Below are positions 5,753-63,725 of a DNA stretch of 64,000 nucleotides, piece by piece (position 1 is the stretch's first letter; every line of letters starts with the position of its first letter). A program made the translations under genes and the position numbers. The notes below the pieces were generated by a model that saw only the letters and a list, made by a program, of their open reading frames with translations, was not told the origin of the DNA and did not search any database. The DNA lies in contig JAOAHY010000005.1 in NCBI GenBank assembly GCA_026414995.1, positions 18,547 through 82,546 of the forward strand. The letters run 5' to 3'. This stretch comes from Caldisericia bacterium (GTDB taxonomy: Bacteria; Caldisericota; Caldisericia; B22-G15).

Positions 5753-6727
5753 ATGAGAGAAATAACATTTGCTGAAGCACTCGGAGAGGCAATGCTTGAA
5801 GAAATGGAGAGAGACCCTACTATTTTTACATATGGTGAAGATATAGCAAAACAGGGAGGAATATTTGGCCAATATAAATCTTTATTAGGAAAATTTAAAG
5901 ACAGAGTCATAGATACACCTATATCAGAAGAAGTTATTTATGGCTCAGCATTAGGAGCAGCATTAGTTGGTATGAGACCTGTTGTTGAATTTCATTTTGC
6001 AGATTTTATATTCACTGGGATAACTTCAATAGTTAATCAAATTATGAAATTTAAACATATGACAGGTGGACAAGGAAAAATTAGAGTTGTTTTGAGAGGA
6101 CCAGATGGAATAGCAAAATCTGCAGCAGCACAACATTCTGAATCAATAGAAACAATATTTATGCATATACCTGGAATTTATGTTGTAATTCCTTCAACTC
6201 CATATGATATGAAAGGTTTACTTAAAACTGCTTTAAGATGTGATGATCCAGTAATTATTTTTGAACATAAAATGCTTTATAAAATTAAAGGGCCAGTACC
6301 AGAGGAAGAATATTTTATACCATTTGGAAAGGCAGATATAAAAAGAGAAGGAAAAGATGTAACTGTTGTTGCAACTTCAAGAATGGTACACGAATCATTG
6401 AAGGCAGCTGATGAACTTAAAAAAGATGGAATTGATGTGGAGGTAATAGATCTTAGAACACTCGTTCCTTGGGATAAAGATTGTGTTATAAATTCAGTTA
6501 AAAAAACACACCATTTAGTAATAGCACATGAAACATGGAAAAGGGCTGGATGGGGTGCAGAAATAGCAGCAGTAGTACAAGAAGAAGCATTTGATTATCT
6601 TGATGCTCCAATAACAAGAGTTGGTGCTAAAAATGTTCACATTGCATTTAGCCCACCATTACAAGATTATATAGTACCAGATTATAAAAATGTAATAGAA
6701 GCTGTAAGGAGAGTTTTGAATGTATGA
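5753..6727 (+). CDS. 2-oxo-acid/acetoin dehydrogenase E1 component beta subunit
   Basis: Transketolase-like pyrimidine-binding and C-terminal domains of E1-beta; strong RBS GGAGGAATTAA-ATG. Confidence 0.85.
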   Translation: MREITFAEALGEAMLEEMERDPTIFTYGEDIAKQGGIFGQYKSLLGKFKDRVIDTPISEEVIYGSALGAALVGMRPVVEFHFADFIFTGITSIVNQIMKFKHMTGGQGKIRVVLRGPDGIAKSAAAQHSESIETIFMHIPGIYVVIPSTPYDMKGLLKTALRCDDPVIIFEHKMLYKIKGPVPEEEYFIPFGKADIKREGKDVTVVATSRMVHESLKAADELKKDGIDVEVIDLRTLVPWDKDCVINSVKKTHHLVIAHETWKRAGWGAEIAAVVQEEAFDYLDAPITRVGAKNVHIAFSPPLQDYIVPDYKNVIEAVRRVLNV

Positions 6728-7847
6728 GTTAAGAATGCCAAAATTTGGTTTAACAATGGAAGAGGGTGTTATAACAAAATGGTATAAAAATGAAGGGGAC
6801 TATATAGAAAAAGGAGAAATAGTTTGTGAGATTGAATCAGAAAAGATAATAAATGATTTAGAATCACCTGTTTCTGGGATTCTTAAAAAAATATTAGTAA
6901 GAGAGGGAGAATCAAAAAAAGTAGGGGATGTTATTGCAATTATAACTGAGAAAGATGAAGAAATAAGAGAGGAGGTGATGGAAACAAAAAAAGAAAAAGA
7001 GGAAAAAGAAATTCTTGCCTCTCCTTCAGCAAAAAGATTAGCAAAAGAAAAAGGAATAGATTTAACAAAAATAAAAGGAAGTGGACCTGGTGGTAGAATA
7101 ATTGAAAAAGATATTTTAGATTATATTGAAAAACAAGAAAAATCAGAAGAGGTAATTGAAGAACTATCACCTATTAGAAAAGAGATAATTAAAAATTTAA
7201 CAAAATCTTATGAAAATACAATTCTCGTAACTAATGTAACAAAAGTAAATTTCACATACTTGATGAACATCAAAAAAAGTTTATTAAAAGAAATTTCTAT
7301 CACATCAATAATTTTGAAAATTGTTAGTGAAGTATTGAAAAAACATAAAAAATTTAATGCAAATTTTGATGGTGAAAAATTGATAAAATTTATGGATATA
7401 AATATTGGTATTGCAACAGATACAGAGAGAGGCCTTGTTGTTCCAGTTATAAAAAAAGTAAACGATCTTACAATATTTGAAATTGATAAAAAATTAAAGG
7501 ATTTAACTCAAAAAGCAAAAGAAAATAGGTTAACTATTGAGGAAACAAAAGACTCTCATTTTACAATTTCAAATCTTGGTATGATGAGAACTGATTTCTT
7601 TACTCCAATTTTAAATGTAAATGAAGTTGGAATTCTTGGAATAGGTAGAATAAACAAAGAGGTTCAGATAGATGAAAATGGGAAAATTTATTTAAATGAT
7701 GTATGTTACTTATCATTATCATATGATCATAGGGTTATAGATGGTGCTGATGCTGCAAGATTTCTAGAAGATATTTGCAGCATTATTGAAAATGAAGACA
7801 AATTAAATTATATTTTAAATCTTTATAAAGGAGGTAAAATTTTATGA
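6720..7847 (+). CDS. Dihydrolipoamide acyltransferase E2 component (lipoyl domain, E3-binding domain and catalytic domain)
   Basis: N-terminal lipoyl domain (CEIESEKI with the lipoyl-Lys context), PSAKRLAKEKGIDL peripheral subunit-binding domain, C-terminal SYDHRVIDGA catalytic His motif. Confidence 0.85.
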   Translation: MYELRMPKFGLTMEEGVITKWYKNEGDYIEKGEIVCEIESEKIINDLESPVSGILKKILVREGESKKVGDVIAIITEKDEEIREEVMETKKEKEEKEILASPSAKRLAKEKGIDLTKIKGSGPGGRIIEKDILDYIEKQEKSEEVIEELSPIRKEIIKNLTKSYENTILVTNVTKVNFTYLMNIKKSLLKEISITSIILKIVSEVLKKHKKFNANFDGEKLIKFMDINIGIATDTERGLVVPVIKKVNDLTIFEIDKKLKDLTQKAKENRLTIEETKDSHFTISNLGMMRTDFFTPILNVNEVGILGIGRINKEVQIDENGKIYLNDVCYLSLSYDHRVIDGADAARFLEDICSIIENEDKLNYILNLYKGGKIL

Positions 7848-8980: not shown

Positions 8981-9442
8981 ATGAGAAAATATTCGATTGA
9001 AGAGATTTTATCGTCTATAATTCTTGCAATAATGGCTATTATTGCGTTTATAAATGTGTTAAGTAGATATTTATTTAAATTATCTATTGCAGCAACTGAA
9101 GAACTCGAAGTAAATTTTTTTGTTTGGTTAACAGTTATAGGTATAGCATTAGCATTTGAAAAAGATTCGCATCTTAATATGACGATTGTGTTTAACAAAT
9201 TTCCAAAATTGATGAAAAAAATTTCTATTTTAATTTCATCTTTTCTTTCAATGGTTTTATTTGGAATAGTCAACTATTTTGCAATTAGAGAAATTTATAT
9301 GGACTTAACTCTTTTTCATATGAGAAGCGAAGCACTCAATATCCCTAATTGGATATATGTAATTGGTATTCCAATTTTTTCAATATTTGTATTTAAAAAA
9401 ATTATTACATCAACAATTAAAAAAATTAAGGAATTAAAATAG
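8981..9442 (+). CDS. TRAP transporter small permease (DctQ family)
   Basis: About 155 aa with 4 TM segments, immediately upstream of DctM. The track start (GTG 8942) lies inside the terminator hairpin; ATG 8981 is preceded by GGAGG. Confidence 0.7.
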   Translation: MRKYSIEEILSSIILAIMAIIAFINVLSRYLFKLSIAATEELEVNFFVWLTVIGIALAFEKDSHLNMTIVFNKFPKLMKKISILISSFLSMVLFGIVNYFAIREIYMDLTLFHMRSEALNIPNWIYVIGIPIFSIFVFKKIITSTIKKIKELK

Positions 9443-25115: not shown

Positions 25116-26136
25116 TGAGTTAAACATTGGTAACATGACAATTAAAAACAGGATTATTATGCCACCACTTGCAGTAAAAAACCCTGAAACAACTGGCTTT
25201 GTTAATGATGTAGTACTAAATTATTATGTTGATATGTCAAAACTTGGAATGGGTCTAATAATAACTGAAAATGTTTTTCCATCAAAGGAATCAAGAGTTA
25301 TGCCAAATCAACTTTTATTATCAGATGATATTTTTATTGAAGGACATAAAAAACTCGTTGATGAGGTTCATAAAAATGGAGTAAAAATTGCTATTGAAAT
25401 AAATCATTCAGGGTCAAATTTATATGAAATACCGGAATTAAAAAATATGCTTAAAAATAAAGAAGAAAGCGATTTTGTCTTTGAAGATGATGAAGATACA
25501 AGAAAACCTCTTAAATCAATAAACGAAGAAGATTTATCAAAAGAAAAAATTAGAGAAATAATTTTATCATTTGGAGAAGCAGGAAGAAGAGCAAAAGAAG
25601 CTGGATATGATATGATTGAAATTCATGCAGGCCATGGATTTTTAATTAATCAATTTTTATCACCAATGATAAACAAAAGGAAAGATGAATATGGAGGAAC
25701 TCCATTAAATAGAGCAAGAATTCTTTTTGAAATTATAGATGAAGTTAAATCTAAAATAAAAGATAAATTAATTTCAGTTAGATTGCCATTAAGTGATAAT
25801 CCTCCACAATTTAAATTTTTTGAAAATGGATTAACACTTGAAGATGGTTTATTAATTGGAAAAGAAGTATCATTAAAAGTTGATATGATTGATGTTACTG
25901 GTGGATATTCTGGAAGTAGACCTAAGGAAATATGGGGTTATGAAGGATATTTTAAAGAATATAGTAAAAAATTAAAAGAAATAGTAAAGATTCCAATTAA
26001 TTTAACAGGTGGTATTAAAACACCAACTTTTGCTAATTATCTTATTGAAAATGGATATTGTGATACTGTTGGAATTGGAAGAGCTCTTCTATCTGATAAA
26101 AATTGGATAGAGAAAGCAAAAGTTGTATTAAGATAA
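25099..26136 (+). CDS. NADH:flavin oxidoreductase, Old Yellow Enzyme family
   Basis: IIMPPLAV..., HAGHGFLINQFLSP, DEYGG motifs of OYE TIM-barrel flavoproteins; RBS AGGAGG. Confidence 0.8.
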   Translation: MSTLFNELNIGNMTIKNRIIMPPLAVKNPETTGFVNDVVLNYYVDMSKLGMGLIITENVFPSKESRVMPNQLLLSDDIFIEGHKKLVDEVHKNGVKIAIEINHSGSNLYEIPELKNMLKNKEESDFVFEDDEDTRKPLKSINEEDLSKEKIREIILSFGEAGRRAKEAGYDMIEIHAGHGFLINQFLSPMINKRKDEYGGTPLNRARILFEIIDEVKSKIKDKLISVRLPLSDNPPQFKFFENGLTLEDGLLIGKEVSLKVDMIDVTGGYSGSRPKEIWGYEGYFKEYSKKLKEIVKIPINLTGGIKTPTFANYLIENGYCDTVGIGRALLSDKNWIEKAKVVLR

Positions 26137-27075
26137 GTATTCTATAAACTCTTTTAGATAAAATTCAACAGTACCAATTTCTTTTATATTAAATCTTAAT
26201 TTATCTAATATTGAAAATTTATCAATTTTAATCTTTATTTTTTCATTAACTTTCCATATAAAGGGATAATTTTTATCTATAACAATCCTTTTTTCATCAA
26301 TTTTAATATTTTCAATAGTGAAATCTGTTAAAGAATTTACTAAAGTCAAAACAATTTCATTTTCTCTATAAAAACTCTCCTCTTTAACAATAAGTTTTAA
26401 TAAATATTGAATGTATTTATTTTCTATCTTTTTTTTATTTTTAAATCTTTCTGGAAAATCGGTTATAACTCCTAAAGGATTATATAGTTTTATCAATTCT
26501 ATTTCATTATCTTCATTAACAACCCATGGGATTATTCTATCATAATAATTTTTATAATCACTTACTAAATAATTTATATTTGGTTTTAAATAATTAACTT
26601 CATTTAGATATTCTTTTATACTTTTTGGAACATGAACATATAGATATGCAAACTTAATATCTTTATAAATTTTTTTAAATTCATAAATCTCTTTATGATA
26701 AAAAGAGGATACAATTAAATTTTCATAATTAAATTTTTTAATTAAATCAAGTACAAACCTAAAATCTTCTCTATTTTTTATTTCAATATCAACAAATTTA
26801 TTTTTATCCCTAACAAGTTGTAAAACTTCTTCAAGAGTTGGAATTTTATCTTTTAAATTATTCTTATTCAATGAATTAAAATCATTTTTTCTTATATCAA
26901 AATCTATTCCAAAAACTCTTTTTAAATTAATATCATGTGAAATTACTAATTTATCATCTAATGTTTTCTGTATATCTACTTCTATACCATCTGCACCTAA
27001 TTCAAATGCTTTGAGATAACTTTTTATTGTATTTTCTGTTTCATAAAAACAACCTCTATGTCCAATTATTATCAT
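26128..27075 (-). CDS. Glycerophosphodiester phosphodiesterase family protein (GDPD domain plus C-terminal extension)
   Basis: IIGHRGCFYETENT ... GADGIEVDIQ ... ISHD: GDPD catalytic His/Glu/Asp motifs. Confidence 0.75.
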   Translation of the reverse strand: MIIIGHRGCFYETENTIKSYLKAFELGADGIEVDIQKTLDDKLVISHDINLKRVFGIDFDIRKNDFNSLNKNNLKDKIPTLEEVLQLVRDKNKFVDIEIKNREDFRFVLDLIKKFNYENLIVSSFYHKEIYEFKKIYKDIKFAYLYVHVPKSIKEYLNEVNYLKPNINYLVSDYKNYYDRIIPWVVNEDNEIELIKLYNPLGVITDFPERFKNKKKIENKYIQYLLKLIVKEESFYRENEIVLTLVNSLTDFTIENIKIDEKRIVIDKNYPFIWKVNEKIKIKIDKFSILDKLRFNIKEIGTVEFYLKEFIEYLS

Positions 27076-27557
27076 CTATTAATTAATTTCTTTACTGCAT
27101 TTTCTATTCCATGATATCCTGTGCATCTACATAAATTACTCTCAAGATATTCTCTTATTGTTTCATCATCAGGCTTTTCATATTTTTTAAGTAATGAATA
27201 TACATTAACAATGAATCCTGAAGTACAGAAACCACATTGAAAACCTTCTTCTTCAATGAATGCCTCTTTAATTCTATTATCATTAATTCCTTCAATGGTA
27301 GTTATTTTGTCTTCGTCATCCAATTCTATAGCTAATATCATGCATGATTTGAACGGAATATCATTTATCAAAACAGTACATGCACCACAATCTCCATTTT
27401 CACAACCAATTTTTGTTCCTGTTAATCCAATTTTTTCTCTTATCACCCTTAATAATGTTTCATTTGTTTTTATTAAAATTCTTTTCTTTTCTCCATTAAT
27501 ATTAAAATTTTTCTCTATAAAACCTTCATAAATTTTCATAATTTTAACTCCTCCCAA
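27072..27557 (-). CDS. Molybdenum hydroxylase (xanthine dehydrogenase/aldehyde oxidoreductase family) [2Fe-2S] subunit
   Basis: GCENGDCGACTV, CGFCTSG, LCRCTGY cysteine motifs. The likely true start is the internal ATG (MKIYEG, about 27539) preceded by GGGAGGAG; the track uses an upstream TTG. Confidence 0.85.
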   Translation of the reverse strand: MGGVKIMKIYEGFIEKNFNINGEKKRILIKTNETLLRVIREKIGLTGTKIGCENGDCGACTVLINDIPFKSCMILAIELDDEDKITTIEGINDNRIKEAFIEEEGFQCGFCTSGFIVNVYSLLKKYEKPDDETIREYLESNLCRCTGYHGIENAVKKLINR

Positions 27558-28377
27558 AATATCTCAAAGCATCATCTAAGATAAGTTTAAAAAGCTCTAT
27601 TCTATATTCTTTGGATGCTCTAAAATCTGATTTGAATAAAGGTAAAAGATACTCAACAATTTTATCAATTTTATTTTTTGAATTCATGTCACTATTATTT
27701 AATATTTCTTCTACCTTTTTATCTCTTAACGGAAAGTTAAATGCACCAGTAATTGCAAATTTTAAATTTTCATTTTCATTCAAAAAAAGAGTAGATATTA
27801 TTGGGTAATCAACTCTTGAATAGAAAACCTTTCTATCATAATAATAATCAAGATTTAGTTTCTCTTTATTGATTACAAATTGAACTAAAATATCTCCTTT
27901 TTCTATTTTTAAATTTTTGTCAAATATTTCATTTATACTTATCTCTTTTAATCCCTCAAGTCCAAAAAATCTTATTTTCGCATCAAAAATGAGCATTGGC
28001 AAAACTGCTTCTCTATATGGAAGTTGACCTAAAATATTTCCACCAATTGTTATTTTATTTCTTGTGGTTCTATCAGCTACATATTTTATTGATTTTGAAA
28101 TTATATTTGAAAAATTAGCCTCTATTAATTTATTTAAAGAAACAGTTGAACCAATTATTAGATTTCCATTATCAAAATAAATCTCAATACATTCTCTAAT
28201 TTTTTTTAAATCAATTAAAACATCAGGATTTATAAGCCTTCTCCTAGTAAAAGTGATAATTTCAGTACCACCACTATAATAATAAGGATTTAGACCCTTT
28301 CCTTTATAATTTATATATATTTCATAAGCTTCTTTTAAATTATCTGGTTTAATATAAATTAAGTCTTTTGAAATCAT
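27544..28377 (-). CDS. Molybdenum hydroxylase FAD-binding subunit (CoxM/XdhB-like)
   Basis: 277 aa, FAD-binding PCMH-type domain (YYYSGGTEI...), positioned between the Mo and Fe-S subunits. Confidence 0.7.
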   Translation of the reverse strand: MISKDLIYIKPDNLKEAYEIYINYKGKGLNPYYYSGGTEIITFTRRRLINPDVLIDLKKIRECIEIYFDNGNLIIGSTVSLNKLIEANFSNIISKSIKYVADRTTRNKITIGGNILGQLPYREAVLPMLIFDAKIRFFGLEGLKEISINEIFDKNLKIEKGDILVQFVINKEKLNLDYYYDRKVFYSRVDYPIISTLFLNENENLKFAITGAFNFPLRDKKVEEILNNSDMNSKNKIDKIVEYLLPLFKSDFRASKEYRIELFKLILDDALRYFGRS

Positions 28378-30701
28378 TTTTCCTCCTTTATTTTATTAAA
28401 AACTTTCTCAAATGTTATTGGTAATCTTTTAATTTCTTTACCAATCGCTCTTGATATTGCATTTGAAAGTGCTCCTGGAATTCCTAAAATTGCCTCTTCT
28501 CCTATTCCTCTTGCTCCATAAGGCCCATCATGTTGTGTGGTTTCAACAAAATCAACTAAATATTCTGGATGTTCTCCAAATCTTGGAATTTTAAAATCTC
28601 TTAATGAATAATTTAAGACTCTTGCTCTTGAATCAAAAATAAAACCTTCGGTTGTTGTAAAACCTATTGCCATTTGAATTCCACCTATAAATTGATGTTT
28701 TGCAAGTTTTTTATTTATTACTTTACCAGCATCAATAACACATACAGCTTTTAAAATTTTATAATTTCCATCTTTTAAATTAACCTCAACTTCAACTGCT
28801 TCAGCACCCATTGTATATTCAAGTGAAGGATCACCTCTTCCTGTTTCTTTATCTATATCCGTTAAAAATCTTGATATATATTTACCTCTTCCAATTATTG
28901 GACCTCCTATAGCATTTCCATTTGGATAAACATAACCTAAAGCTATATCTTTAATTTCCAAAAACTTATGCTCTGCTCCCAATACATAAACTTTCCCATC
29001 TTTTATATCTAAATCCTCTTTTGGACATCTTAAAACCTGAGATGCAACTTCTTTAATTTGATTTATCGCATCATCACAAGCATCAATTACTGCTCTTCCA
29101 GCCATAACAAGAGATCTACTCGCTGCTGTAGTCCAATCATGAGGAGATCGATCTGTTATAACTTCAGATACAACATTTATCTTTGAAATATCTAATTTAA
29201 ATTTTGATGCTACAATTTGTGCTAAACCAGTTTGAGTTCCAGAACCAATTTCTACAACTCCAACATTAACATTTATAGATCCATTTTCATTAAAAGATAT
29301 AATTGCTCCAGCATCTGTATTTGGAGGTATCATTGGGGGTTTCCAAAAACATGCAAAACCTTTTGCTTTAACCTTATTATCATCAATTTTTAAATAACTT
29401 CCCTCATTCCACTTAATTAATTCTTTCGCTTTCTCAATACATTTCCTTAAATCTCCAGTTGAATCATCCATTAACTGATTTGTTGGAGTTGTGTCTCCCT
29501 TCTTTATTACATTTATATACCTTAACTCAATTGGGTCTATATTTAGTTTTTTACTTAAAATGTCCATCGCTCTTTCAATTGCAAAAGAAAGTTCAATATG
29601 TCCAAATCCTCTATATGCAGTAGCAAATGGATGATTCGTGTAAACACATAATGAATCACATCTCACATTTGGAACATTGTATGGTCCAGTACAAGAAACC
29701 GCAGCACCTCTTGAAATATTTACTGCATAATCTGCATATGCGCCTGAGTCAAATATATATAATATGTCCATTGCTACTAATTTTCCATCTTTTTTTGCAC
29801 CAATTTTAATCTTTCCATACATTCCTATTCTTCCAGGAGATGAAATCAAATCTTCTTCTCTTTTATTAACAAGTTTTACTTTTCTTCCATTAACACTCTT
29901 TGAAAGAATTAATGCTAAACCCTCAAGTTGAATTCCTGCTTTTCCACCAAAACCACCACCAACTTTTGGAGCAATAACTCTTATTTTTTCATGTGGAATT
30001 CCAAAAAATTTACTCAATAAATTTCTAACAACAAAAGGTGCTTGAGTTGAAGAGTAAATAATAACCATACCATCAGGCAAAATTTCTGCTATAACAGCTC
30101 TTGGCTCCATTGCAACATGATCGCCTGGTGGAAGACAAAACTCTTCTTCAATTACTACATCTGACTCCTTGAAACCTTTTTCTATATCACCCTTTCTAAT
30201 TTTTGTTCTATTTGCAATATTTGTACCTGGTTCTGGATGAATACTTGATATATGAGAGTATTTTTCCATTTCTTCATGTATAATTGGTGCATTATCTTTT
30301 AATGCATCAAGAGGATTTCCCACAAAAGGAAGTGGTTCATATTCTACTTTTATTAATTTAATTGCTCTTTCTGCAATCTCCTCACTATCTGCAACAACTG
30401 CTGCAACCGGTTCTCCAAAATATCTTACTTTATCTATTGCAAGAGGTGGTTTATCTCCTAAATATATTCCAAAGAGTATTGGGTAATCTTTACCTAATAA
30501 TATAGACCTTACACCTTCTATCTTTTTTGCTTCTTCTATATCTATTGATTTTATTTTTGCGTGAGAAAGTGGGCTTATTAATATCCTTGCGTAAAGAAGA
30601 TCTGGAAAATAAAGATCATTAGTATAAGTTGCCTTTCCAGAAACTTTTAAAATCCCATCTAACCTATTAATTTCTTTACCTATATAATTGTATTCACTCA
30701 T
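28374..30701 (-). CDS. Molybdenum hydroxylase large (molybdopterin-binding) subunit, xanthine dehydrogenase/aldehyde oxidoreductase family
   Basis: 775 aa, Ald_Xan_dh hammerhead plus MoCo-binding domains (GGGFGGK, ...GEHPEY...); RBS GAGGGAGG. Confidence 0.85.
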   Translation of the reverse strand: MSEYNYIGKEINRLDGILKVSGKATYTNDLYFPDLLYARILISPLSHAKIKSIDIEEAKKIEGVRSILLGKDYPILFGIYLGDKPPLAIDKVRYFGEPVAAVVADSEEIAERAIKLIKVEYEPLPFVGNPLDALKDNAPIIHEEMEKYSHISSIHPEPGTNIANRTKIRKGDIEKGFKESDVVIEEEFCLPPGDHVAMEPRAVIAEILPDGMVIIYSSTQAPFVVRNLLSKFFGIPHEKIRVIAPKVGGGFGGKAGIQLEGLALILSKSVNGRKVKLVNKREEDLISSPGRIGMYGKIKIGAKKDGKLVAMDILYIFDSGAYADYAVNISRGAAVSCTGPYNVPNVRCDSLCVYTNHPFATAYRGFGHIELSFAIERAMDILSKKLNIDPIELRYINVIKKGDTTPTNQLMDDSTGDLRKCIEKAKELIKWNEGSYLKIDDNKVKAKGFACFWKPPMIPPNTDAGAIISFNENGSINVNVGVVEIGSGTQTGLAQIVASKFKLDISKINVVSEVITDRSPHDWTTAASRSLVMAGRAVIDACDDAINQIKEVASQVLRCPKEDLDIKDGKVYVLGAEHKFLEIKDIALGYVYPNGNAIGGPIIGRGKYISRFLTDIDKETGRGDPSLEYTMGAEAVEVEVNLKDGNYKILKAVCVIDAGKVINKKLAKHQFIGGIQMAIGFTTTEGFIFDSRARVLNYSLRDFKIPRFGEHPEYLVDFVETTQHDGPYGARGIGEEAILGIPGALSNAISRAIGKEIKRLPITFEKVFNKIKEEK

Positions 30702-52488: not shown

Positions 52489-52564
52489 TGGTGCGCCCGA
52501 GAGGATTTGAACCCCTATCCGTAGCTCCGGATGCTACTGCTCTATCCACTTAAGCTACGGGCGC
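52489..52564 (-). tRNA. tRNA-Arg (anticodon CCG), CCA encoded
   Basis: Minus-strand GCGCCCGTAGCTTAAGTGGATAGAGCAGTAGCATCCGGAGCTACGGATAGGGGTTCAAATCCTCTCGGGCGCACCA. It has a 7-bp acceptor stem, D-arm, anticodon loop AUCCGGA (C34-C35-G36), T-arm GGTTCAAAT and 3' CCA. Confidence 0.8.
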
Positions 52565-57950: not shown

Positions 57951-60263
57951 ATGGAAAAAGTTAATTTGGAGGAAGTTCAAAAGTTAGAAGTTGTTAAAGA
58001 TTTAGTAGATCAATTAATTGATTTAATGTTAAATTATAGACAAAGTGGGCATCCTGGTGGATCAAGATCAAAGGTTCACATGTTTGTTTCAACTCTTCTT
58101 TCAAAACATTTAAGATATGACATAAGAGATCCAGCTAAACCTTTTAATGATAGAATAATTCTTGCTGCTGGACATACAATTCCTCTTGTTTATGCAACAC
58201 TTGCAGTTTTTAATGAGGCAATGAGATTAAGATATGAAGAAACAAAAGATTCAAGATATCTTCCAAAAGATATTGAATCAACTCTTTATCCAAAAGATCT
58301 TTTAACATTTAGAAGAAGAGGAGGACTTCCAGGACATGCTGAAATGGGAGGGAAAACTCTTATACTTAAATTTAATACTGGTCCATCTGGACATGGTATA
58401 ACAGCGTCAGTTGGTGAAGCAATTGCACTTAAAAAAATGGGAGCAGATGGAGTTAAAGTTGTAGTTTTTGAAGGAGATGCAGGACTTACTCCAGGTGGCG
58501 CACATGAAACAATGAATTCTGCATGGGCTCTTGGACTTGATAACCTCTTTTTCTTAATCGATTGGAATAATTTCGGAATTGATGATCACCCACTCTCTGA
58601 AACTGTTCCAAATACTCCAAAAGAGTGGTTTGGTTGTCATGGATGGAGAGTTGTTGGAACATTAAATGGAAATGATTTTCCATCTGTTCTTGAAACAATC
58701 GATGATCTTTTTGGAAATATACAAAAAAATATACCAAATGTTGCATATTTTAAAACAAAAAAGGGAAGAGATTATTTAAAGTATGACAACAAATCTCATG
58801 GTGTTCCACATCCAATGAATTCTGAGATATTTTGGCAAACAAAGGCACCTTTTCAAGAAAAATATGGAGTAAAATTTGAAGGTTTTATGGAACCTCCACC
58901 TCCTACTTATGAAGAAAGAATGAAGCAATTTGAAAAAAATATTGATATAGTTATATCAGTTTTAAGAGAAAATAAAGAAGTTTATAGATTTATAGCCGAT
59001 AGATTACTTGAATTGGGAGAAAAAGTTCCAAATCACATTGAAACATTAAGAATTGATAGAGAAAGAAATCCAATTTATGATGATGCAATTTATGATTTCA
59101 GAAACTATCCTCAAGAAATTTGGGCAAAACCCGGTGAAAAACAACCAAATAGAGCTGCTTTAAGAAAATGGGGTGCTTGGATTAATTCATATACTTATAA
59201 AAAATATGGAAGGCCGCTTTTTATTGCAATGTCTGCAGATTTAACTGAATCAACAAATATTGATGGCTTTGGACTTCCTTTTGGAGATTTTCCAGGACTT
59301 GGTTGGTATGACAAAGAAAAAAATATTGATGGAGTTCTTCTTCCTCAAGAAATCACTGAATTTGTAAATTCTGGAATTTGCGTAGGTATTGAAACAGTAA
59401 ATATTGCGAAAGATCCTTATAAAGAATTTTTAGGTTATTATTCTGCTTGTTCAACTTATGGCTCATTTGCCTATTTAAAATATGGAATGATGAGACTATT
59501 TTCTCAACTTGCTCAAGATTGTCCTATAAAAGTAGGAAAAGTTATTTGGGTTGCAGGACATTCTGGACCAGAAACTGCAGATGATTCAAGAACTCACTTC
59601 GGAATTTTTGCAACAGGGGTTACAAAACTCTTTCCAAAGGGTCAAGTTATTAGTTTATATCCATGGGAATATAATGAAGTTCCAGTTTTATTGGGTAGGG
59701 CACTTAAAGAAAATGTACCAATAATTGTTTTACATCTTACAAGACCACCAATTGAAATTCCAGATAGAGAAAAATTAGGAATTCCAAGTCACTTTGAAGC
59801 AGCTCATGGTGCTTATATTTTAAGAGATTATGAGATTGGTAAAGAAAAAATGGGAACAGTAATTGTTCAGGGAACTAGTCCAGTAAATGAAATTATAAAA
59901 ATTTTACCAAAATTCAAAGAAGAAGGAATAAATGTTAAAATTATCGTTGCAAGTTCTTATGAACTTTTTATGTTAGAGAGTGAAGATTATAGAAATAAAG
60001 TACTTCCAAAAGAAGATTGGGCAAACTCAATGGTTATAACAAATGAATGCTTAAAAAATATGAGTGATTGGTTATTCTCAAAAGTTAATGAAGAGTATTC
60101 AATGTCTTCTGATTGGGATAATAGATGGAGAACTGGTGGAACAGTTGAAGATGTCCTTGAAGAGGCTCATCTTACAAAAGAATACATCTTCGAAGGTATT
60201 AAAAAATTCGCAATGGATAAGGAAAAAAGATTAAAGAAAATTAAAGAGTATTTCAATATTTAA
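57951..60263 (+). CDS. Transketolase-family TPP enzyme, atypically long (770 aa) and divergent
   Basis: SGHPGGSRS, LAAGHTIP, FRRRGGLPGHAE, FEGDAGLTPGGAHE ... DWNNFGIDD parallel transketolase N-terminal TPP motifs. It carries insertions and about 100 extra residues. Confidence 0.6.
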   Translation: MEKVNLEEVQKLEVVKDLVDQLIDLMLNYRQSGHPGGSRSKVHMFVSTLLSKHLRYDIRDPAKPFNDRIILAAGHTIPLVYATLAVFNEAMRLRYEETKDSRYLPKDIESTLYPKDLLTFRRRGGLPGHAEMGGKTLILKFNTGPSGHGITASVGEAIALKKMGADGVKVVVFEGDAGLTPGGAHETMNSAWALGLDNLFFLIDWNNFGIDDHPLSETVPNTPKEWFGCHGWRVVGTLNGNDFPSVLETIDDLFGNIQKNIPNVAYFKTKKGRDYLKYDNKSHGVPHPMNSEIFWQTKAPFQEKYGVKFEGFMEPPPPTYEERMKQFEKNIDIVISVLRENKEVYRFIADRLLELGEKVPNHIETLRIDRERNPIYDDAIYDFRNYPQEIWAKPGEKQPNRAALRKWGAWINSYTYKKYGRPLFIAMSADLTESTNIDGFGLPFGDFPGLGWYDKEKNIDGVLLPQEITEFVNSGICVGIETVNIAKDPYKEFLGYYSACSTYGSFAYLKYGMMRLFSQLAQDCPIKVGKVIWVAGHSGPETADDSRTHFGIFATGVTKLFPKGQVISLYPWEYNEVPVLLGRALKENVPIIVLHLTRPPIEIPDREKLGIPSHFEAAHGAYILRDYEIGKEKMGTVIVQGTSPVNEIIKILPKFKEEGINVKIIVASSYELFMLESEDYRNKVLPKEDWANSMVITNECLKNMSDWLFSKVNEEYSMSSDWDNRWRTGGTVEDVLEEAHLTKEYIFEGIKKFAMDKEKRLKKIKEYFNI

Positions 60264-60295
60264 TTTTGAGATTTTTTAGATTAGAAAAATTTTTA

Positions 60296-60323
60296 AGAGG
60301 GAGATAGGCTCTCCCTCTTTTTA
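60296..60323. terminator. Intrinsic terminator hairpin
   Basis: AGAGGGAGA-taggc-TCTCCCTCT followed by TTTTTAATTT. Confidence 0.65.
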
Positions 60324-60333
60324 ATTTATATTG

Positions 60334-61371
60334 TTAAAATTTTATTAGAGATAATTTATTAATATTATCAATAACTTTTGATAAATTTTCATGTGTTAAT
60401 AAAACTTCTTTAATATCCCAAAAAGTTAATAATTTTTTAAAATCTTCTTTTAAATTTTCTGTTTCTTTTTTAATCTCTTCAATCATTTTTGTATTTGAAA
60501 CAGCTATGATTTTTTGAACAGTTGGATTATTTACAGACTTTAATAAATTTAAAATTAAGCTATCTATTGACCCCTTTTTATGAACTTCGAAAATATAAGT
60601 CACCATTCCTAAATTACCTATCTTTGCTCTCCATACAACATCTACTTTTGCTCCTTTTGCAATTAATTCCTCTATAGATGTTTCAAAACCTAACCAATCC
60701 CCTATTTCCTTTATCTTGTCTCTAATTTCGTCATGATCAAACTCAAAATCTTCTTCTACATAATTTTCTTCGGAATAAACAGAAATTTCATATAAAAAAT
60801 GGTCAACTCCAAGCATATCTAAATAAGGATAATTTATTTCTTTTAATATTTCAAGGAGCTCTCTGTATAACTTTATAAGATCTAAATATTCTTTACCATT
60901 AATGTAATATTTTTTGATTATTTGGTTCTCAATTTTTAATTTTGATAAACCTTTTCTTGCTTTATCATTCCATATAATATAATTTTGAGGGTCAAAAAAA
61001 CATAATATTTCAGTAATTGAAGCTGGACCTATATATTTAACTTCTTTTCTAAATCTATCAAATCTAATATCAATATTTTCTTTACCATATAATAATTGAA
61101 TTAATTCATTTTTAATCTTTGTGATTCCATTTGCATCAATAATATTTTTAATTTGATAATCTTTGTTTGTCCAAAATTCAGTTGCCCAAAGGTTTGAAAT
61201 TATCTCTTTAAATTTAAATTCATCTAATGAATCTAGCTCTTCTTGTTTAAGATAAAATAAGATTTTTTCTCTGTTTTTTAATTTCAATTCATAATCTAAT
61301 TTAAAATTTTTTAAATTTTTTATTTTCTTATAATAGTCCTTGATTAAACTTTTTGTTTCTTCTTTTATCAT
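60334..61371 (-). CDS. Hypothetical protein with C-terminal PD-(D/E)xK-like nuclease motifs
   Basis: C-terminal GFETSIEE ... KVDVVW ... FEVHKKG fits the E / hD / ExK order of restriction-endonuclease-fold nucleases. The N-terminal 200 aa is unassigned. RBS AGGAGG, 23 nt after the xdh-like large-subunit stop. Confidence 0.4.
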   Translation of the reverse strand: MIKEETKSLIKDYYKKIKNLKNFKLDYELKLKNREKILFYLKQEELDSLDEFKFKEIISNLWATEFWTNKDYQIKNIIDANGITKIKNELIQLLYGKENIDIRFDRFRKEVKYIGPASITEILCFFDPQNYIIWNDKARKGLSKLKIENQIIKKYYINGKEYLDLIKLYRELLEILKEINYPYLDMLGVDHFLYEISVYSEENYVEEDFEFDHDEIRDKIKEIGDWLGFETSIEELIAKGAKVDVVWRAKIGNLGMVTYIFEVHKKGSIDSLILNLLKSVNNPTVQKIIAVSNTKMIEEIKKETENLKEDFKKLLTFWDIKEVLLTHENLSKVIDNINKLSLIKF

Positions 61372-61394
61372 TTATATAAACCTCCTATAATAAT

Positions 61395-63725
61395 TTACCC
61401 CTTTAAAGCTCTCCATACTTTTTCTGGAGTAAATGGGAGAAAATTTAGTTTTATTCCTGTAGCATCTAAGAAAGCATTTCTAATTGCTGGGGCAGGTCCA
61501 TTTATGTTAATTTCTGCTACAGATTTTACTCCAAAAGGACCTGTTGGTTCATATGTTTCTACAAATTTTACAATAATTTCTGGAATATCAAGTGCAGTTA
61601 AAACTTTATAATCAAGGAAATTTGCATTTAATGGCACACCTCTATTTGAATAAATCAACTCTTCAGTTAAGGCATAACCTAATCCTTGAACAATTGAGCC
61701 AATTGCTTGACCTTTTGCAAGATTTGGATGAACAATAGTTCCTATATCATTTATTGCAACATATTTTATTGGAATAATTTTGCCAGTTTCTAAATCAACA
61801 TCTATTAAAACAAAATGTGCTGCAAATGGTGGAGGTGATTTTGGAGAAACAAAGGATGCTGTTGCTTCAATCTGCTCTTGTTCAAAATCATAAAAACTTT
61901 TTTCTCCAATTTCTTTTAAAGAAATTTTATTTCCTGTTAATTTTGATATAACAAAATCGTCCTCTATTTTTAAATCTTCTTGATACTCATTTAAAATTTT
62001 TGAAGCATATTCTAAAATTTTATTCTTAATTAATTTACCTGCCTTTTGTACTGCACCACCTGAAATATAAGTTGTACTTGAAGCATATGCTCCAGTATCA
62101 AAAGGAGTAAAATCTGTATCAGAAGAATAAACTTTTATCTTTTCATAAGGAACACTTAACTCTTCAGCAAGAATTTGTGCAAGAACCGTGTCTGAACCTG
62201 TTCCAATATCTGTTGCACCAACAAAAAGGTGAAATGTTCCATCATCATTGAGTTTTACTCTTGCGCTTGCCATATCAATTAAAGGAATCCCTGAACCTTG
62301 CATCATAATTGCCATTCCTACTCCTCTAACATAACTACCATTTCTTATTCTTTTACCTCTCCACTTTTCCCATTCAATTTCTTTTTTCCCTATTTCAATA
62401 CATTTTTCTAAACCTGAACTTTCAATATATTGAACGACACCTTCTCTTCCTTCTCCTAATTTTTCAAAAACAGGTGAAGTTTCTCCTTCTTTTATGTGAT
62501 TAATTTTTCTCAATTCAATTGGATCAATTCCAATTAATTCTGCAAGATCATCCATTGCACTTTCAAGAGCAAAATAACCATTTGTTGCACCATATCCTCT
62601 AAATGCACCTGATGTAGGTAAATTAGTATAAACAGCATCACCTATAAAAGAAATGCTCTCTGCTTTATTATAGAGTGGAAGTGTTTTACTTCCTGAGTTG
62701 AAAAGCACTGTTGGTCCATGTGTTCCATATCCACCATTATTTAATAAAACTTTAAGTTGAATTGCATTTAATTTTCCTGATTTATCTGCTCCTAAGCTTA
62801 CCCAAACTTTTGAAGGATGCCTTAATCTTGAAGCAATAAATTCCTCTTTTCTTGTGTATTCAATTCTTACTGGTCTTTTTGTTCTTAAAGTCATTAAGGC
62901 ACATACATCTTCTAAAATCATTTCTTGTTTCACTCCAAAACCACCACCAATCCTTGGTTTAATTACTCTTATTTTTTTCATTGGAAATTCAAGAATTTTA
63001 GATAAAATTCTTCTAATATGAAATGGAACTTGTGTACTTGTTCTAACTACAAGGTTTCCATATTCGTCAAAATATGTTATTGTTATATGAGTTTCTATTG
63101 GTGTATGTTGAACTGGTTGGGTTATAAAAAATTCTTTTTCAATTTTATAATGTGATTCATTAAATTCCTTTTCAAAATCTCCAATATTTAATTCAACATG
63201 AGATATTATGTTTCTTCTTTTATCATAAATTCCTTTAGTATCTTCTTCATCATGAATTATTACTTCACCTTTCATCGCTTCATCAGGATCAAGAACAAAA
63301 GGAAGTTCCTTATAATTTACTTTTATTTTTGAAATTGCTTCTTCTGCTGCCTCAAGTGTTTCAGCACAAACAGCACAAACTCTATCACCAACATGCCTTA
63401 CTTTTTTATCAAACATAAAGTGATCATAAGGAGAAGGTTCTGGATAACCTTGACCTGCAGTTGTATGAGGAATTCTTGGTGTGTTTTTATAAGATAAAAT
63501 AAGTTTTACTCCAGGGATTTTAAGTGCTTCACTCTCATCAATGTCAACAATTTCTGCATGAGGATAAGGACTTAATAAAAATTTTCCATGAAGCATATTT
63601 GGTAAAAAAATGTCATCTGTAAAAAGAGGATTCCCCACTGCAAGAGGTAAACCATCATATTTCTCTACATTTTTTCCAATTATTTTCTTTTCAATAAAAA
63701 TTTCTTCCTTTATTATTTTGCTCAT
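61395..63725 (-). CDS. Molybdenum hydroxylase large (molybdopterin-binding) subunit, second paralogue
   Basis: 776 aa, same domain organisation as 28374..30701 (GGGFG, MoCo-binding C-terminal domains) but clearly a different sequence. Confidence 0.85.
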   Translation of the reverse strand: MSKIIKEEIFIEKKIIGKNVEKYDGLPLAVGNPLFTDDIFLPNMLHGKFLLSPYPHAEIVDIDESEALKIPGVKLILSYKNTPRIPHTTAGQGYPEPSPYDHFMFDKKVRHVGDRVCAVCAETLEAAEEAISKIKVNYKELPFVLDPDEAMKGEVIIHDEEDTKGIYDKRRNIISHVELNIGDFEKEFNESHYKIEKEFFITQPVQHTPIETHITITYFDEYGNLVVRTSTQVPFHIRRILSKILEFPMKKIRVIKPRIGGGFGVKQEMILEDVCALMTLRTKRPVRIEYTRKEEFIASRLRHPSKVWVSLGADKSGKLNAIQLKVLLNNGGYGTHGPTVLFNSGSKTLPLYNKAESISFIGDAVYTNLPTSGAFRGYGATNGYFALESAMDDLAELIGIDPIELRKINHIKEGETSPVFEKLGEGREGVVQYIESSGLEKCIEIGKKEIEWEKWRGKRIRNGSYVRGVGMAIMMQGSGIPLIDMASARVKLNDDGTFHLFVGATDIGTGSDTVLAQILAEELSVPYEKIKVYSSDTDFTPFDTGAYASSTTYISGGAVQKAGKLIKNKILEYASKILNEYQEDLKIEDDFVISKLTGNKISLKEIGEKSFYDFEQEQIEATASFVSPKSPPPFAAHFVLIDVDLETGKIIPIKYVAINDIGTIVHPNLAKGQAIGSIVQGLGYALTEELIYSNRGVPLNANFLDYKVLTALDIPEIIVKFVETYEPTGPFGVKSVAEININGPAPAIRNAFLDATGIKLNFLPFTPEKVWRALKG

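What the first reader, a model, noticed from the sequence alone, without database searches (positions are those of the whole stretch)
60334..63725. Orphan PD-(D/E)xK-like gene sitting in operon position directly downstream of a molybdenum hydroxylase large-subunit gene
The 345-aa protein at 60334..61371 starts 23 nt after the xdh-like large subunit stop with its own AGGAGG. No terminator intervenes, so it appears co-transcribed with a redox enzyme. Its C-terminus has residues in the order and spacing of restriction-endonuclease-fold nucleases (E ... hD ... ExK: GFETSIEE, KVDVVW, FEVHKKG). The N-terminal 200 aa matches nothing I recognise and is not XdhC-like, since it lacks the Rossmann GxGxxG. 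A terminator hairpin follows the gene.

It could be a stand-alone defence or type-IV-restriction-like nuclease parked here. Alternatively it could be a novel accessory factor of the Mo-enzyme that merely mimics the motif.
Basis: partly seen in the sequence, partly recalled or inferred. Interest (0 to 1): 0.5.

Follow-up and report, generated by a model that had tools for sequence, protein, structure and literature searches.

The report
Modified-DNA-sensing restriction nuclease beside xdh operon
The gene after the xanthine-dehydrogenase-like operon is not a helper of that enzyme but most likely a stand-alone anti-virus nuclease, built from a disabled DNA-repair glycosylase domain (a probable sensor of unusual bases) joined to a restriction-enzyme cutting domain, a type first described in 2025.

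The parts
60334..61371 (-). Complete gene for the 345-aa two-domain protein (END-type nuclease candidate)
   Evidence: The ORF is listed. It is 100% identical to a Caldisericia MAG hypothetical protein and has 611 homologues. The AlphaFold model has mean pLDDT 91.7.
60772..61371 (-). N-terminal all-helical domain (aa 1-200): Ogg-like helix-hairpin-helix (HhH) fold, predicted to be catalytically dead and to act as a sensor of non-canonical bases
60994..61074 (-). HhH motif (aa 100-126, ...VKYIGPASITEIL...). Ala117 (61021..61023) stands where MjOgg has the catalytic Lys129.
   Evidence: The alignment is. Position 117 is A 162, S 43, G 5, V 1 of 211 and never K. K129 is the residue mutated in the 3KNT trapping construct.
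60967..60969 (-). Asn135 codon, at the position of the catalytic Asp147 of MjOgg
   Evidence: The alignment is. The position is N 205 and T 6 of 211, never D. The neighbouring residue 136 is variable.
60337..60756 (-). C-terminal PD-(D/E)xK (restriction-endonuclease-fold) domain, aa 206-345. Candidate active-site residues are D244 (60640..60642), E262 (60586..60588) and H264 (60580..60582), together with H213, E215, E234, N275, K278 and K287.
61372..61394 (-). 23-nt spacer between the xdhL stop and the ATG, with the Shine-Dalgarno sequence AGGAGG (reverse complement of 61382..61387)
   Evidence: Read directly from the sequence. No terminator-like site was found here.
61395..63725 (-). Mo-hydroxylase (xanthine-dehydrogenase-like) large-subunit gene. 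It is the conserved upstream boundary of the variable slot, not a functional partner.
   Evidence: Pfam domains are. Its orthologues are followed by different cargo or none.
60295..60319 (.). Two-way GC-rich hairpin (10-bp stem) between the convergent stops of the nuclease gene and the transketolase gene
   Evidence: Found by the scan. The same hairpin is kept in L093, which lacks the nuclease gene.
57951..60263 (+). Convergent transketolase gene, the conserved downstream boundary of the slot
   Evidence: ORF. Synteny is shown.

Best explanation
The gene encodes a single-protein, modification-dependent (type-IV-like) restriction nuclease of the END type.

Proposed mechanism:
- The N-terminal domain descends from an archaeal-type 8-oxoguanine glycosylase (Ogg2, helix-hairpin-helix fold). 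It keeps the DNA-binding hairpin and pocket but has lost both catalytic residues. It is therefore inferred to probe DNA and bind non-canonical, probably modified purine, bases of invading phage DNA without excising them.
- The C-terminal NucS/Mrr-like PD-(D/E)xK domain, with a D244...E262-x-H/Q264 metal site, then cuts that DNA.
- Host DNA lacks the modification, so no methyltransferase partner is needed.

The position after the xdh-like operon is a lineage-specific cargo slot for defence genes in Caldisericia. The gene may be read through from the xdh promoter, but it has no functional tie to the Mo-enzyme.

Shown here: the two folds, the loss of the glycosylase residues, the conservation of the nuclease acidic residues, the defence and restriction-modification (R-M) neighbourhoods, the variable slot, and the sensor's fusion to McrB-type GTPases in other proteins.

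Inferred: base sensing, the identity of the target modification, DNA cleavage, and antiviral function.
For: 1. Structure. The AlphaFold model has pLDDT 91.7.
2. Loss of glycosylase residues. The profile alignment to Ogg2 puts A117 at MjOgg K129 and N135 at D147. In 211 family sequences these positions are never K and never D.
3. Nuclease site conservation:
   - D244 in 210 of 211.
   - E262, H213 and N275 in 211 of 211.
   - K or R at 278 in 211 of 211.
4. Neighbourhoods of homologues.
   - P0062 lies directly after a DruE-like helicase in an SNF2 plus IIG-methylase cluster.
   - P0021 is next to a type I hsdRSM cluster.
   - P0054 is in an island with MjaI, TIR, DUF6602 and Schlafen genes.
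   - The commonest neighbour gene clusters within four genes are type I R-M subunits, D12 methylases and AlwI; the commonest Pfam families among directly adjacent genes are ResIII, N6_Mtase/Eco57I and HSDR_N.
   - At least 12 of 55 dereplicated loci have such a gene within four genes.
5. The slot. Close xdhL orthologues are followed by one of the following:
   - this gene (L095, L096);
   - this gene in disrupted form (L091);
   - a type IIG R-M plus AbiEi/AbiEii (L098);
   - a DUF4143 fragment (L099, L100);
   - unrelated decayed ORFs (L093, the closest at 91% xdhL identity);
   - nothing (L101).
6. Sensor modularity. The same N-domain is fused to McrB-like AAA_5 GTPases, alongside EVE or MrcB_N readers in two of them.
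7. Literature. PMC12191111 reports that an inactivated EndoIII/Ogg sensor (PF21790) fused to a PLD nuclease, or to a 'NucS-like PD-DExK' nuclease (END-Mag), restricts phages with hypermodified DNA. END-Mag acted specifically on phages with modified G.
8. Distribution. It is patchy across many bacterial and archaeal phyla at 35-55% identity and includes four plasmids.
Against: - No biochemical or phage data exist for this protein or for any confirmed member of its sequence family.
- The END-Mag sequence (MDV2503288.1) could not be obtained, so the tie to the one tested PD-DExK END nuclease rests on architecture and shared structural neighbours, not on direct alignment.
- The canonical Lys of the nuclease motif is His or Gln, so activity is assumed by analogy with E-x-Q and E-x-E enzymes.
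- The Ogg2 residue mapping rests on a weak profile-profile score (hhalign E 0.0035, probability 9%). It is, however, anchored on the GxG hairpin and is gap-free to N135.
- In Caldisericia the gene has kept one position through divergence down to about 60% identity, which is unusually stable for a defence gene.
- Most neighbourhoods (about 75%) show no recognisable defence gene.
- PADLOC 2023 has no model that matches it.
Confidence: 0.7

Rival explanations
1. It is a DNA-repair endonuclease. The Ogg-like domain would recognise a damaged base (8-oxoG, deaminated or alkylated purine) in the cell's own DNA, and the NucS-like domain would nick or cut next to it, giving an alternative excision-repair route for thermophiles and anaerobes.
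For: Its closest structural relatives are repair enzymes: Ogg2 glycosylases and NucS/EndoMS. Many carriers are thermophiles such as Thermococcus, Thermotoga, Caldisericia, Archaeoglobaceae and Caldarchaeales. The position is stable within Caldisericia.
Against: The gene is present or absent among very close relatives, and one copy is disrupted. Its scatter across phyla looks like horizontal transfer rather than lineage-wide conservation. It recurs beside restriction-modification and other defence genes. The sensor also replaces or joins known modified-DNA readers on McrB GTPases. END-Mag, of the same architecture, behaves as a phage-restriction enzyme (PMC12191111).
Confidence: 0.12
2. It is an active defence glycosylase-nuclease. 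The helix-hairpin-helix (HhH) domain would still excise a modified base, as the Dag or Brig-type defence glycosylases do, using non-canonical catalytic residues. The nuclease domain would then cut at the abasic site.
For: HhH glycosylases that excise 7-deazaguanines act as defences (bioRxiv 10.1101/2025.10.29.685425). The family has other invariant polar residues in the N-domain (E121, D190, N69, K70) that could in principle form a new active site. The weak hhalign match of 'VDHFLY' to EndoIII 'VDTHIF', which places D190 at D138, is a curiosity.
Against: Both canonical catalytic positions are non-catalytic in all 211 sequences. The D190/D138 match has probability 0.1% and lies 50 residues out of register with the HhH hairpin. 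The described END sensors are likewise inactive.
Confidence: 0.06
3. It is an accessory or maturation factor of the Mo-hydroxylase (an XdhC-like role) that only mimics a nuclease motif.
Against: Outside Caldisericia, only one of the 80 genome loci (L043) has an xdh-like gene within 10 kb, and it lies more than 4 kb away on the other strand. None of about 70 more distant xdh loci carries the gene, and close xdhL orthologues lack it (L093, L097-L101). In L098 the same slot holds a type IIG R-M plus AbiE. No Pfam or NCBIfam chaperone match was found. The 2we7 hit is at the level of generic alpha/beta folds such as CheY receivers.
Confidence: 0.02
4. It serves a mobile element or acts as a toxin, for example as a homing or addiction nuclease that promotes its own maintenance at the slot rather than protecting the host.
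For: It is a single gene with patchy distribution, occurs on plasmids, lies next to a transposase in L004, and occupies a variable slot.
Against: No antitoxin- or immunity-like partner is conserved next to it. No repeats or integrase flank it in the window. The modification-reader logic and the McrB fusions fit restriction better.
Confidence: 0.06

Closest known systems
END nucleases, PD-DExK subtype (END-Mag, MDV2503288.1; Yee et al. 2025, bioRxiv 10.1101/2025.03.31.646159 = PMC12191111)
   Same: It is a single polypeptide that joins an inactivated EndoIII/Ogg helix-hairpin-helix (HhH) domain to a 'NucS-like' PD-(D/E)xK nuclease, with no methyltransferase partner. The paper's top structural relatives for END-Mag are SsOgg, MjOgg and TmOgg, and its nuclease is called NucS-like; these are the same relatives found here. 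The sensor family is also found fused to McrB-like GTPases, as the paper states.
   Different: The domain order of END-Mag is not stated in the text I could read. This copy is from a thermophilic Caldisericia MAG and has no experimental data. Its target modification is unknown.
END-PaCF1-type END nucleases (PLD nuclease + C-terminal iEndoIII)
   Same: The sensor is of the same Pfam type (PF21790 OGG-like is cited for the END-PaCF1 C-terminal domain, and is matched by 17 of 40 members here). The logic is the same: a dead glycosylase acts as reader of hypermodified DNA.
   Different: The effector there is a PLD/HxK nuclease at the N-terminus. Here it is a PD-(D/E)xK domain at the C-terminus, so the domain order is reversed.
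Archaeal-type 8-oxoguanine DNA glycosylases (Ogg2: MjOgg 3FHF/3KNT, TmOgg 3N0U, SsOgg 3FHG)
   Different: The catalytic Lys129 and Asp147 equivalents are Ala/Ser and Asn/Thr. There is an extra N-terminal pair of helices and a fused nuclease. It is not a member of the enzyme family in the functional sense.
NucS/EndoMS and Mrr-like (AF1548) PD-(D/E)xK nuclease domains; BglII/BamHI-type E-x-Q and E-x-E variants
   Same: It shares the alpha-beta-beta-beta-alpha-beta core, with Asp at the start of strand 2 and Glu at the end of strand 3.
   Different: The canonical Lys is His or Gln; a sister subfamily has FEVEH. No sequence-level match to any solved nuclease was found.
McrBC, Mrr, MspJI and other type IV modification-dependent restriction enzymes
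   Same: It has a reader domain plus a PD-(D/E)xK cutter and no cognate methylase. MspJI and AspBHI appear among the fold hits. The sensor is interchangeable with EVE and MrcB_N readers on McrB.
   Different: There is no NTPase motor.

Membership tests
END nucleases (Yee et al. 2025) | Sensor domain homologous to EndoIII/Ogg helix-hairpin-helix glycosylases (PF21790-type) | tested here: met
END nucleases (Yee et al. 2025) | Glycosylase catalytic residues lost (inactive sensor) | tested here: met
   MjOgg K129 aligns with A117 and D147 with N135. Across 211 sequences there is no Lys at 117 and no Asp at 135. The caveat is that the profile alignment is weak (E 0.0035).
END nucleases (Yee et al. 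2025) | Fusion to a nuclease effector (PLD, or NucS-like PD-DExK) | tested here: met
END nucleases (Yee et al. 2025) | No cognate methyltransferase; acts alone | tested here: met
   The window neighbours are xdhL and the transketolase gene. No neighbour is conserved across 55 dereplicated loci.
END nucleases (Yee et al. 2025) | Sequence homology to an experimentally tested member (END-Mag MDV2503288.1) | not tested
   The sequence is not held in the paper text or supplements, and accession look-ups did not reveal it.
END nucleases (Yee et al. 2025) | Restricts phages with hypermodified DNA but not unmodified phages | not testable with these tools
   This needs plaque assays or in-vitro cleavage.
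PD-(D/E)xK nuclease superfamily | Alpha-beta-beta-beta-alpha-beta core fold | tested here: met
   DSSP on the model gives H213-226, E230-238, E241-251, E255-263, H269-279 and E285-292. There are many restriction-endonuclease hits.
PD-(D/E)xK nuclease superfamily | Catalytic D ... (D/E)-x-K triad | tested here: inconclusive
   D244 (210 of 211) and E262 (211 of 211) are present. The x+2 position is H or Q and never K. K265 is K or R in 83% of sequences, and K or R at 278 is universal. From general knowledge, this resembles the E-x-Q and E-x-E variants of BglII and BamHI. The 3D placement of a substitute Lys was not checked because no coordinates were available.
HhH-GPD / Ogg2 DNA glycosylases (as enzymes) | Catalytic Lys in the helix-hairpin-helix motif and catalytic Asp about 18 residues downstream | tested here: not met
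   K129 was confirmed as the catalytic residue by the K129Q construct in 3KNT.
XdhC / Mo-cofactor insertion factors | Sequence or fold homology to XdhC and consistent co-occurrence with xdh operons | tested here: not met
Type IV (modification-dependent) restriction enzymes | Cleaves only modified DNA; no cognate methylase | not testable with these tools
   The architecture is consistent: a reader, a nuclease and no methylase. The activity is untested.

The most novel reading that the evidence does not exclude
This very widespread archaeal and bacterial family might be a lineage of Ogg-derived sensor nucleases separate from the tested END-Mag. It could recognise a class of DNA modification or lesion not yet tied to defence, for example modifications of archaeal or thermophile viruses. 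In Caldisericia the gene might have been fixed in a read-through position behind a purine/nucleoside-catabolic operon (PfkB-FAD-Fer2-xdhL), so that restriction is co-expressed with salvage of the released purines.
Probability: 0.1. Interest if true: 0.6.

Novelty: new member of a known kind. Interest (0 to 1): 0.35.

Why it matters
- The analysis gives a likely function to a large family that public annotation still calls 'hypothetical protein'. The family has more than 600 sequences and about 240-400 clusters at 50% identity, spread over many bacterial and archaeal phyla.
- It extends the recently proposed END-nuclease idea (a dead glycosylase as reader of hypermodified DNA) to thermophiles and archaea.
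- If these enzymes are active, their wide spread implies that viruses with modified purines are common in these little-studied hosts. Thermostable members could also serve as reagents for detecting modified DNA.
- It shows that tight 'operon position' after a metabolic gene can simply mark a defence-gene insertion hotspot.

Tried and rejected
- Direct sequence searches of the protein found nothing significant:
  - Pfam, NCBIfam and PADLOC;
  - PDB sequences, with the single protein and with the family profile; the ephrin and glyoxalase hits are noise.
- Exact-sequence contig look-ups failed for the window protein and for Thermococcus CL1_1074.
- The afdb50 fold library was unavailable.
- Attempts to obtain END-Mag (MDV2503288.1) failed through paper supplements, full-text search and cluster accession lists. 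Direct homology therefore remains untested.
- hhalign against E. coli EndoIII alone gave only a meaningless 18-column match, D190 to D138 at probability 0.1%. I rejected it as the catalytic register in favour of the Ogg2 profile alignment, which is anchored on the helix-hairpin-helix hairpin.
- I looked for a remnant of the gene in the 'empty' L093 slot and found none.
- Base composition gives no clear sign of recent acquisition: GC is 22% against 31-32% in the flanks, but GC3 is similar.
- Promoter-like hits are no more frequent than in shuffled sequence, so an internal promoter can be neither shown nor excluded.
- Rfam finds only a tRNA in the window.
- No phage genome in the collection encodes a homologue.
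- The precomputed Pfam label PF27126, attached to three homologues, is not in the local Pfam copy, so its name is unknown.
Full report
**Observation**

The window holds an ATG-started ORF of 345 aa at 60334..61371 on the minus strand. Upstream on the same strand, ORF 61395..63725 is a molybdenum-hydroxylase large subunit with Ald_Xan_dh_C, MoCoBD_1 and MoCoBD_2 domains (E 1e-27 to 1e-76).

The spacer is 23 nt (61372..61394). It carries AGGAGG (reverse complement of 61382..61387) 10 nt before the ATG. A consensus scan finds no terminator-like hairpin between the two genes. The one strong hairpin (60295..60319, 10-bp stem) lies between the converging stops of this gene and the transketolase gene 57951..60263. 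Promoter-like matches are no more frequent than in shuffles. Co-transcription with xdhL is therefore plausible but unproven.

**Not an isolated sequence**

The protein is 100% identical to a hypothetical protein of a Caldisericia MAG. It has 611 homologues at E<=1e-3, typically 340-370 aa, at 40-65% identity. A scan of one genome per species returned 115 loci (the best 80 were kept). They come from many phyla, including Chloroflexota, Planctomycetota, Bacillota, Bacteroidota, Acidobacteriota, CPR, Methanobacteria, Archaeoglobi, Nitrososphaeria/Caldarchaeales, Brockarchaeota and Aenigmarchaeota. Four copies are on plasmids, all annotated 'hypothetical protein', and no phage carries one. This patchy spread at moderate identity is what is expected of a horizontally moving accessory gene.

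**Structure**

An AlphaFold2 model built on a 40-sequence alignment has mean pLDDT 91.7 and two domains.

- *Residues 1-200* are all-helical.
  - Foldseek gives MjOgg 3knt (probability 0.99), MagIII, SsOgg and MutY.
  - 17 of 40 family members match Pfam PF21790 'OGG-like', with best E 1.1e-7. The window protein itself is sub-threshold at E 0.076.
- *Residues 206-345* have the order helix, three strands, helix, strand.
  - They also match BamHI, BglII, MspJI, HamA and McrC.

**Catalytic residues**

I recalled the MjOgg and E. coli EndoIII sequences from memory and verified both as 100% identical to 3FHF and 2ABK. The 3KNT construct differs from 3FHF only by K129Q, which marks the catalytic lysine.

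A profile-profile alignment of the family against three Ogg2 sequences covers 97 columns (E 0.0035). It is weak, but it is anchored on the K-G-h-G hairpin and is gap-free from there to the catalytic Asp position. It places MjOgg K129 opposite A117 and D147 opposite N135.

Conservation across 211 distinct family sequences:

| Position | Residues observed |
|---|---|
| 117 | A 162, S 43, G 5, V 1 |
| 135 | N 205, T 6 |
| 136 | variable |
| D244 | 210 of 211 |
| E262, H213, N275 | 211 of 211 each |
| 264 (canonical Lys slot) | H 143, Q 68 |
| K265 | K or R in 175 of 211 |
| 278 | always K or R |

No sequence keeps either glycosylase catalytic residue. The N-domain is thus an inactivated glycosylase. 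The C-domain keeps a metal-binding acidic pair in a D...E-x-H/Q variant. From general knowledge this resembles BglII (E-x-Q) and BamHI (E-x-E).

**Neighbourhoods**

Outside Caldisericia the gene is never next to xdh. One locus of the 80 has an xdh-like gene, but it lies more than 4 kb away on the other strand.

Examples of other contexts:
- One copy lies directly after a 1743-aa DruE-like helicase, in a cluster with an SNF2 protein and a type IIG-like methylase. A transposase and BrxC/D-like genes follow.
- One copy is divergent from a type I hsdR-S-M cluster.
- One copy sits in an island with an MjaI R-M, TIR, DUF6602 and Schlafen genes.

Across the loci, the most recurrent neighbour gene clusters within four genes are HsdM/N6_Mtase, HsdS, HsdR, D12 methylases and AlwI. 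Among directly adjacent genes at 55 dereplicated loci, the commonest Pfam families are ResIII, N6_Mtase/Eco57I and HSDR_N, and the commonest PADLOC models are type IIG, type I and PglX/DrmMI-like. At least 12 of the 55 loci have such a gene within four genes. No single partner is conserved, so the protein acts alone.

**The xdh slot**

In Caldisericia relatives the gene does sit right after xdhL. This holds in L001 (81% identical protein), L006 and L092 (about 60%), L091, L095 and L096, and probably L094, whose contig ends 36 aa into the gene. L002 carries the same protein as L001 on a short contig that shows only the end of the upstream gene. However, a scan for close xdhL orthologues shows that the interval between xdhL and the convergent transketolase gene is variable:

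| Locus | xdhL identity | Content of the slot |
|---|---|---|
| L093 | 91% (TKT 95%) | unrelated decayed ORFs; no remnant of the gene |
| L099, L100 | 80% | a DUF4143/PDC-S01 fragment |
| L098 | 80% | 1316-aa type IIG restriction-methylase, then AbiEi/AbiEii, starting 12 nt after xdhL |
| L097 | 81% | unrelated genes |
| L101 | 68% | xdhL abuts the transketolase gene |
| L091 | 91% | the gene, broken by a deletion/frameshift |

None of about 70 more distant xdh loci has the gene. The nuclease also diverges much faster than its flanks (67-81% identity against 91-95%). The slot is therefore a cargo site, largely for defence genes, bounded by conserved core genes. It is not an operon with a functional logic.

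**Sensor modularity**

I searched 1.84 billion cluster representatives with the N-domain alone. This gave 396 clusters at E<=1e-3 and 239 at E<=1e-10.

- Of the 82 full-length hits among the 150 listed, 43 carry the same nuclease domain.
- About 39 carry a divergent restriction-endonuclease-like domain with an 'iDv.W...FEVEH' motif.
- Five are fused to McrB-type AAA_5 GTPases. One has three sensor stretches. One also has an EVE domain, and one an MrcB_N domain. The latter two domains are known readers of modified DNA in type IV systems.

**Comparison with the literature**

Yee et al. (bioRxiv 2025; PMC12191111) define 'END nucleases'. These are defence nucleases whose specificity domain is a catalytically inactive EndoIII/Ogg domain; they cite PF21790.

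- The prototype fuses this sensor to a PLD nuclease.
- They showed that one PD-DExK form from a sediment metagenome (END-Mag, MDV2503288.1) restricts phages with modified guanine but not phages with modified T or C or unmodified phages. Its top HHpred hits are SsOgg, MjOgg and TmOgg.

The architecture, the structural neighbours and the alternative fusions I find are the same. I could not obtain the END-Mag sequence, so direct family membership is likely but untested. A second preprint shows that active helix-hairpin-helix glycosylases can themselves be defences against 7-deazaguanine phages. The loss of both catalytic residues argues against that mode here.

**Mechanism proposed**

The Ogg-derived domain scans DNA and captures a non-canonical, probably modified purine, base without excising it. 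This licenses or positions the PD-(D/E)xK domain to cut. Host DNA lacks the mark, so no methylase is needed.

- Shown: the folds, the residue patterns, the gene contexts and the sensor modularity.
- Inferred: base sensing, cleavage, the target chemistry and the antiviral role.

Rivals, in order of weight, are a damage-specific repair nuclease, an active glycosylase-nuclease, a selfish nuclease, and a Mo-enzyme accessory factor (essentially refuted).

**Verdict**

This is a new, uncharacterised member of a kind first described in 2025. Interest is moderate. Its value lies in annotating a large 'hypothetical' family across archaea and thermophiles and in showing a defence hotspot behind a metabolic operon.

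Noticed in passing
L098:8358-13790 (sibling Caldisericia contig; same slot as window 60264..61394): In place of the nuclease gene, the slot after xdhL holds a 1316-aa type IIG restriction-methylase (Eco57I/MmeI-like) followed by an AbiEi/AbiEii pair. L099 and L100 carry a DUF4143 (PDC-S01) fragment there. The xdhL/transketolase interval therefore behaves as a defence-gene hotspot.
   Followed up: partly
L091:9865-10852: The copy in this relative is split into a 38-aa ORF and a 283-aa ORF by a deletion/frameshift that removes about residues 40-58. It is either a pseudogene or an assembly error. A small SAM-methyltransferase gene lies next to it on the other strand.
   Followed up: partly
Proteins P0170, P0199, P0239, P0241, P0274 (representative-library hits): The same Ogg-like sensor domain is fused to McrB-type AAA_5 GTPases. 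In P0170 it gives three matched stretches, which suggests tandem copies. In P0199 it accompanies an EVE domain and in P0239 an MrcB_N reader domain.
   Followed up: partly
Proteins P0148, P0149 and about 37 others (385-415 aa): A sister subfamily has the same sensor but a longer, divergent C-terminal domain with an 'iDv.W ... FEVEH' motif (E-x-E, BamHI-like). The nuclease-domain HMM does not detect it.
   Followed up: partly
L004:295-11071, L005 and L042: The homologue is directly adjacent, on the same strand, to a DruE-like 1743-aa helicase (DEAD/Helicase_C/MZB). The cluster also has an SNF2 protein and a type IIG-like methylase. This may be a composite Druantia/DISARM-like island in which the nuclease is a regular passenger.
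   Followed up: no
window 26128..30701 (-): There is a second Mo-hydroxylase cluster (ORFs of 315, 161, 277 and 775 aa). Its large subunit is 33% identical to the one at 61395..63725, so the genome carries at least two xdh/aldehyde-oxidoreductase-type enzymes.
   Followed up: no
L006:3451-4083, L091:3271-3896, L092:79-711: A PemK-toxin/RHH-antitoxin pair is conserved a few kb upstream of the xdh operon in the relatives. The surrounding genes are for nucleoside uptake and salvage (Bmp, ABC transporter, IU_nuc_hydro, PfkB). The window ends before this region.
   Followed up: no
window 60295..60319: This two-way terminator-like hairpin (AAGAGGGAGA...TCTCCCTCTT) is shared by the convergent genes. 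The same stem is conserved in L093 (about 9187..9210) although the nuclease gene is absent there, so it belongs to the transketolase side of the slot.
   Followed up: partly
L173 (Methanothermobacter tenebrarum plasmid pRMAS01, 22 kb) 5857-6975: A homologue sits on a small archaeal plasmid near a 2.9-kb N-6 DNA methylase gene and a NERD-type nuclease gene. RefSeq calls it a hypothetical protein.
   Followed up: no
table (P0018, P0023, P0050): Three homologues carry a precomputed label PF27126, a Pfam model newer than the local copy. Pfam may already have defined a family for part of this protein, but its name could not be read.
   Followed up: no
window 52492..52564 (-): This is the only Rfam match in the window, a tRNA gene of 57.8 bits.
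   Followed up: no
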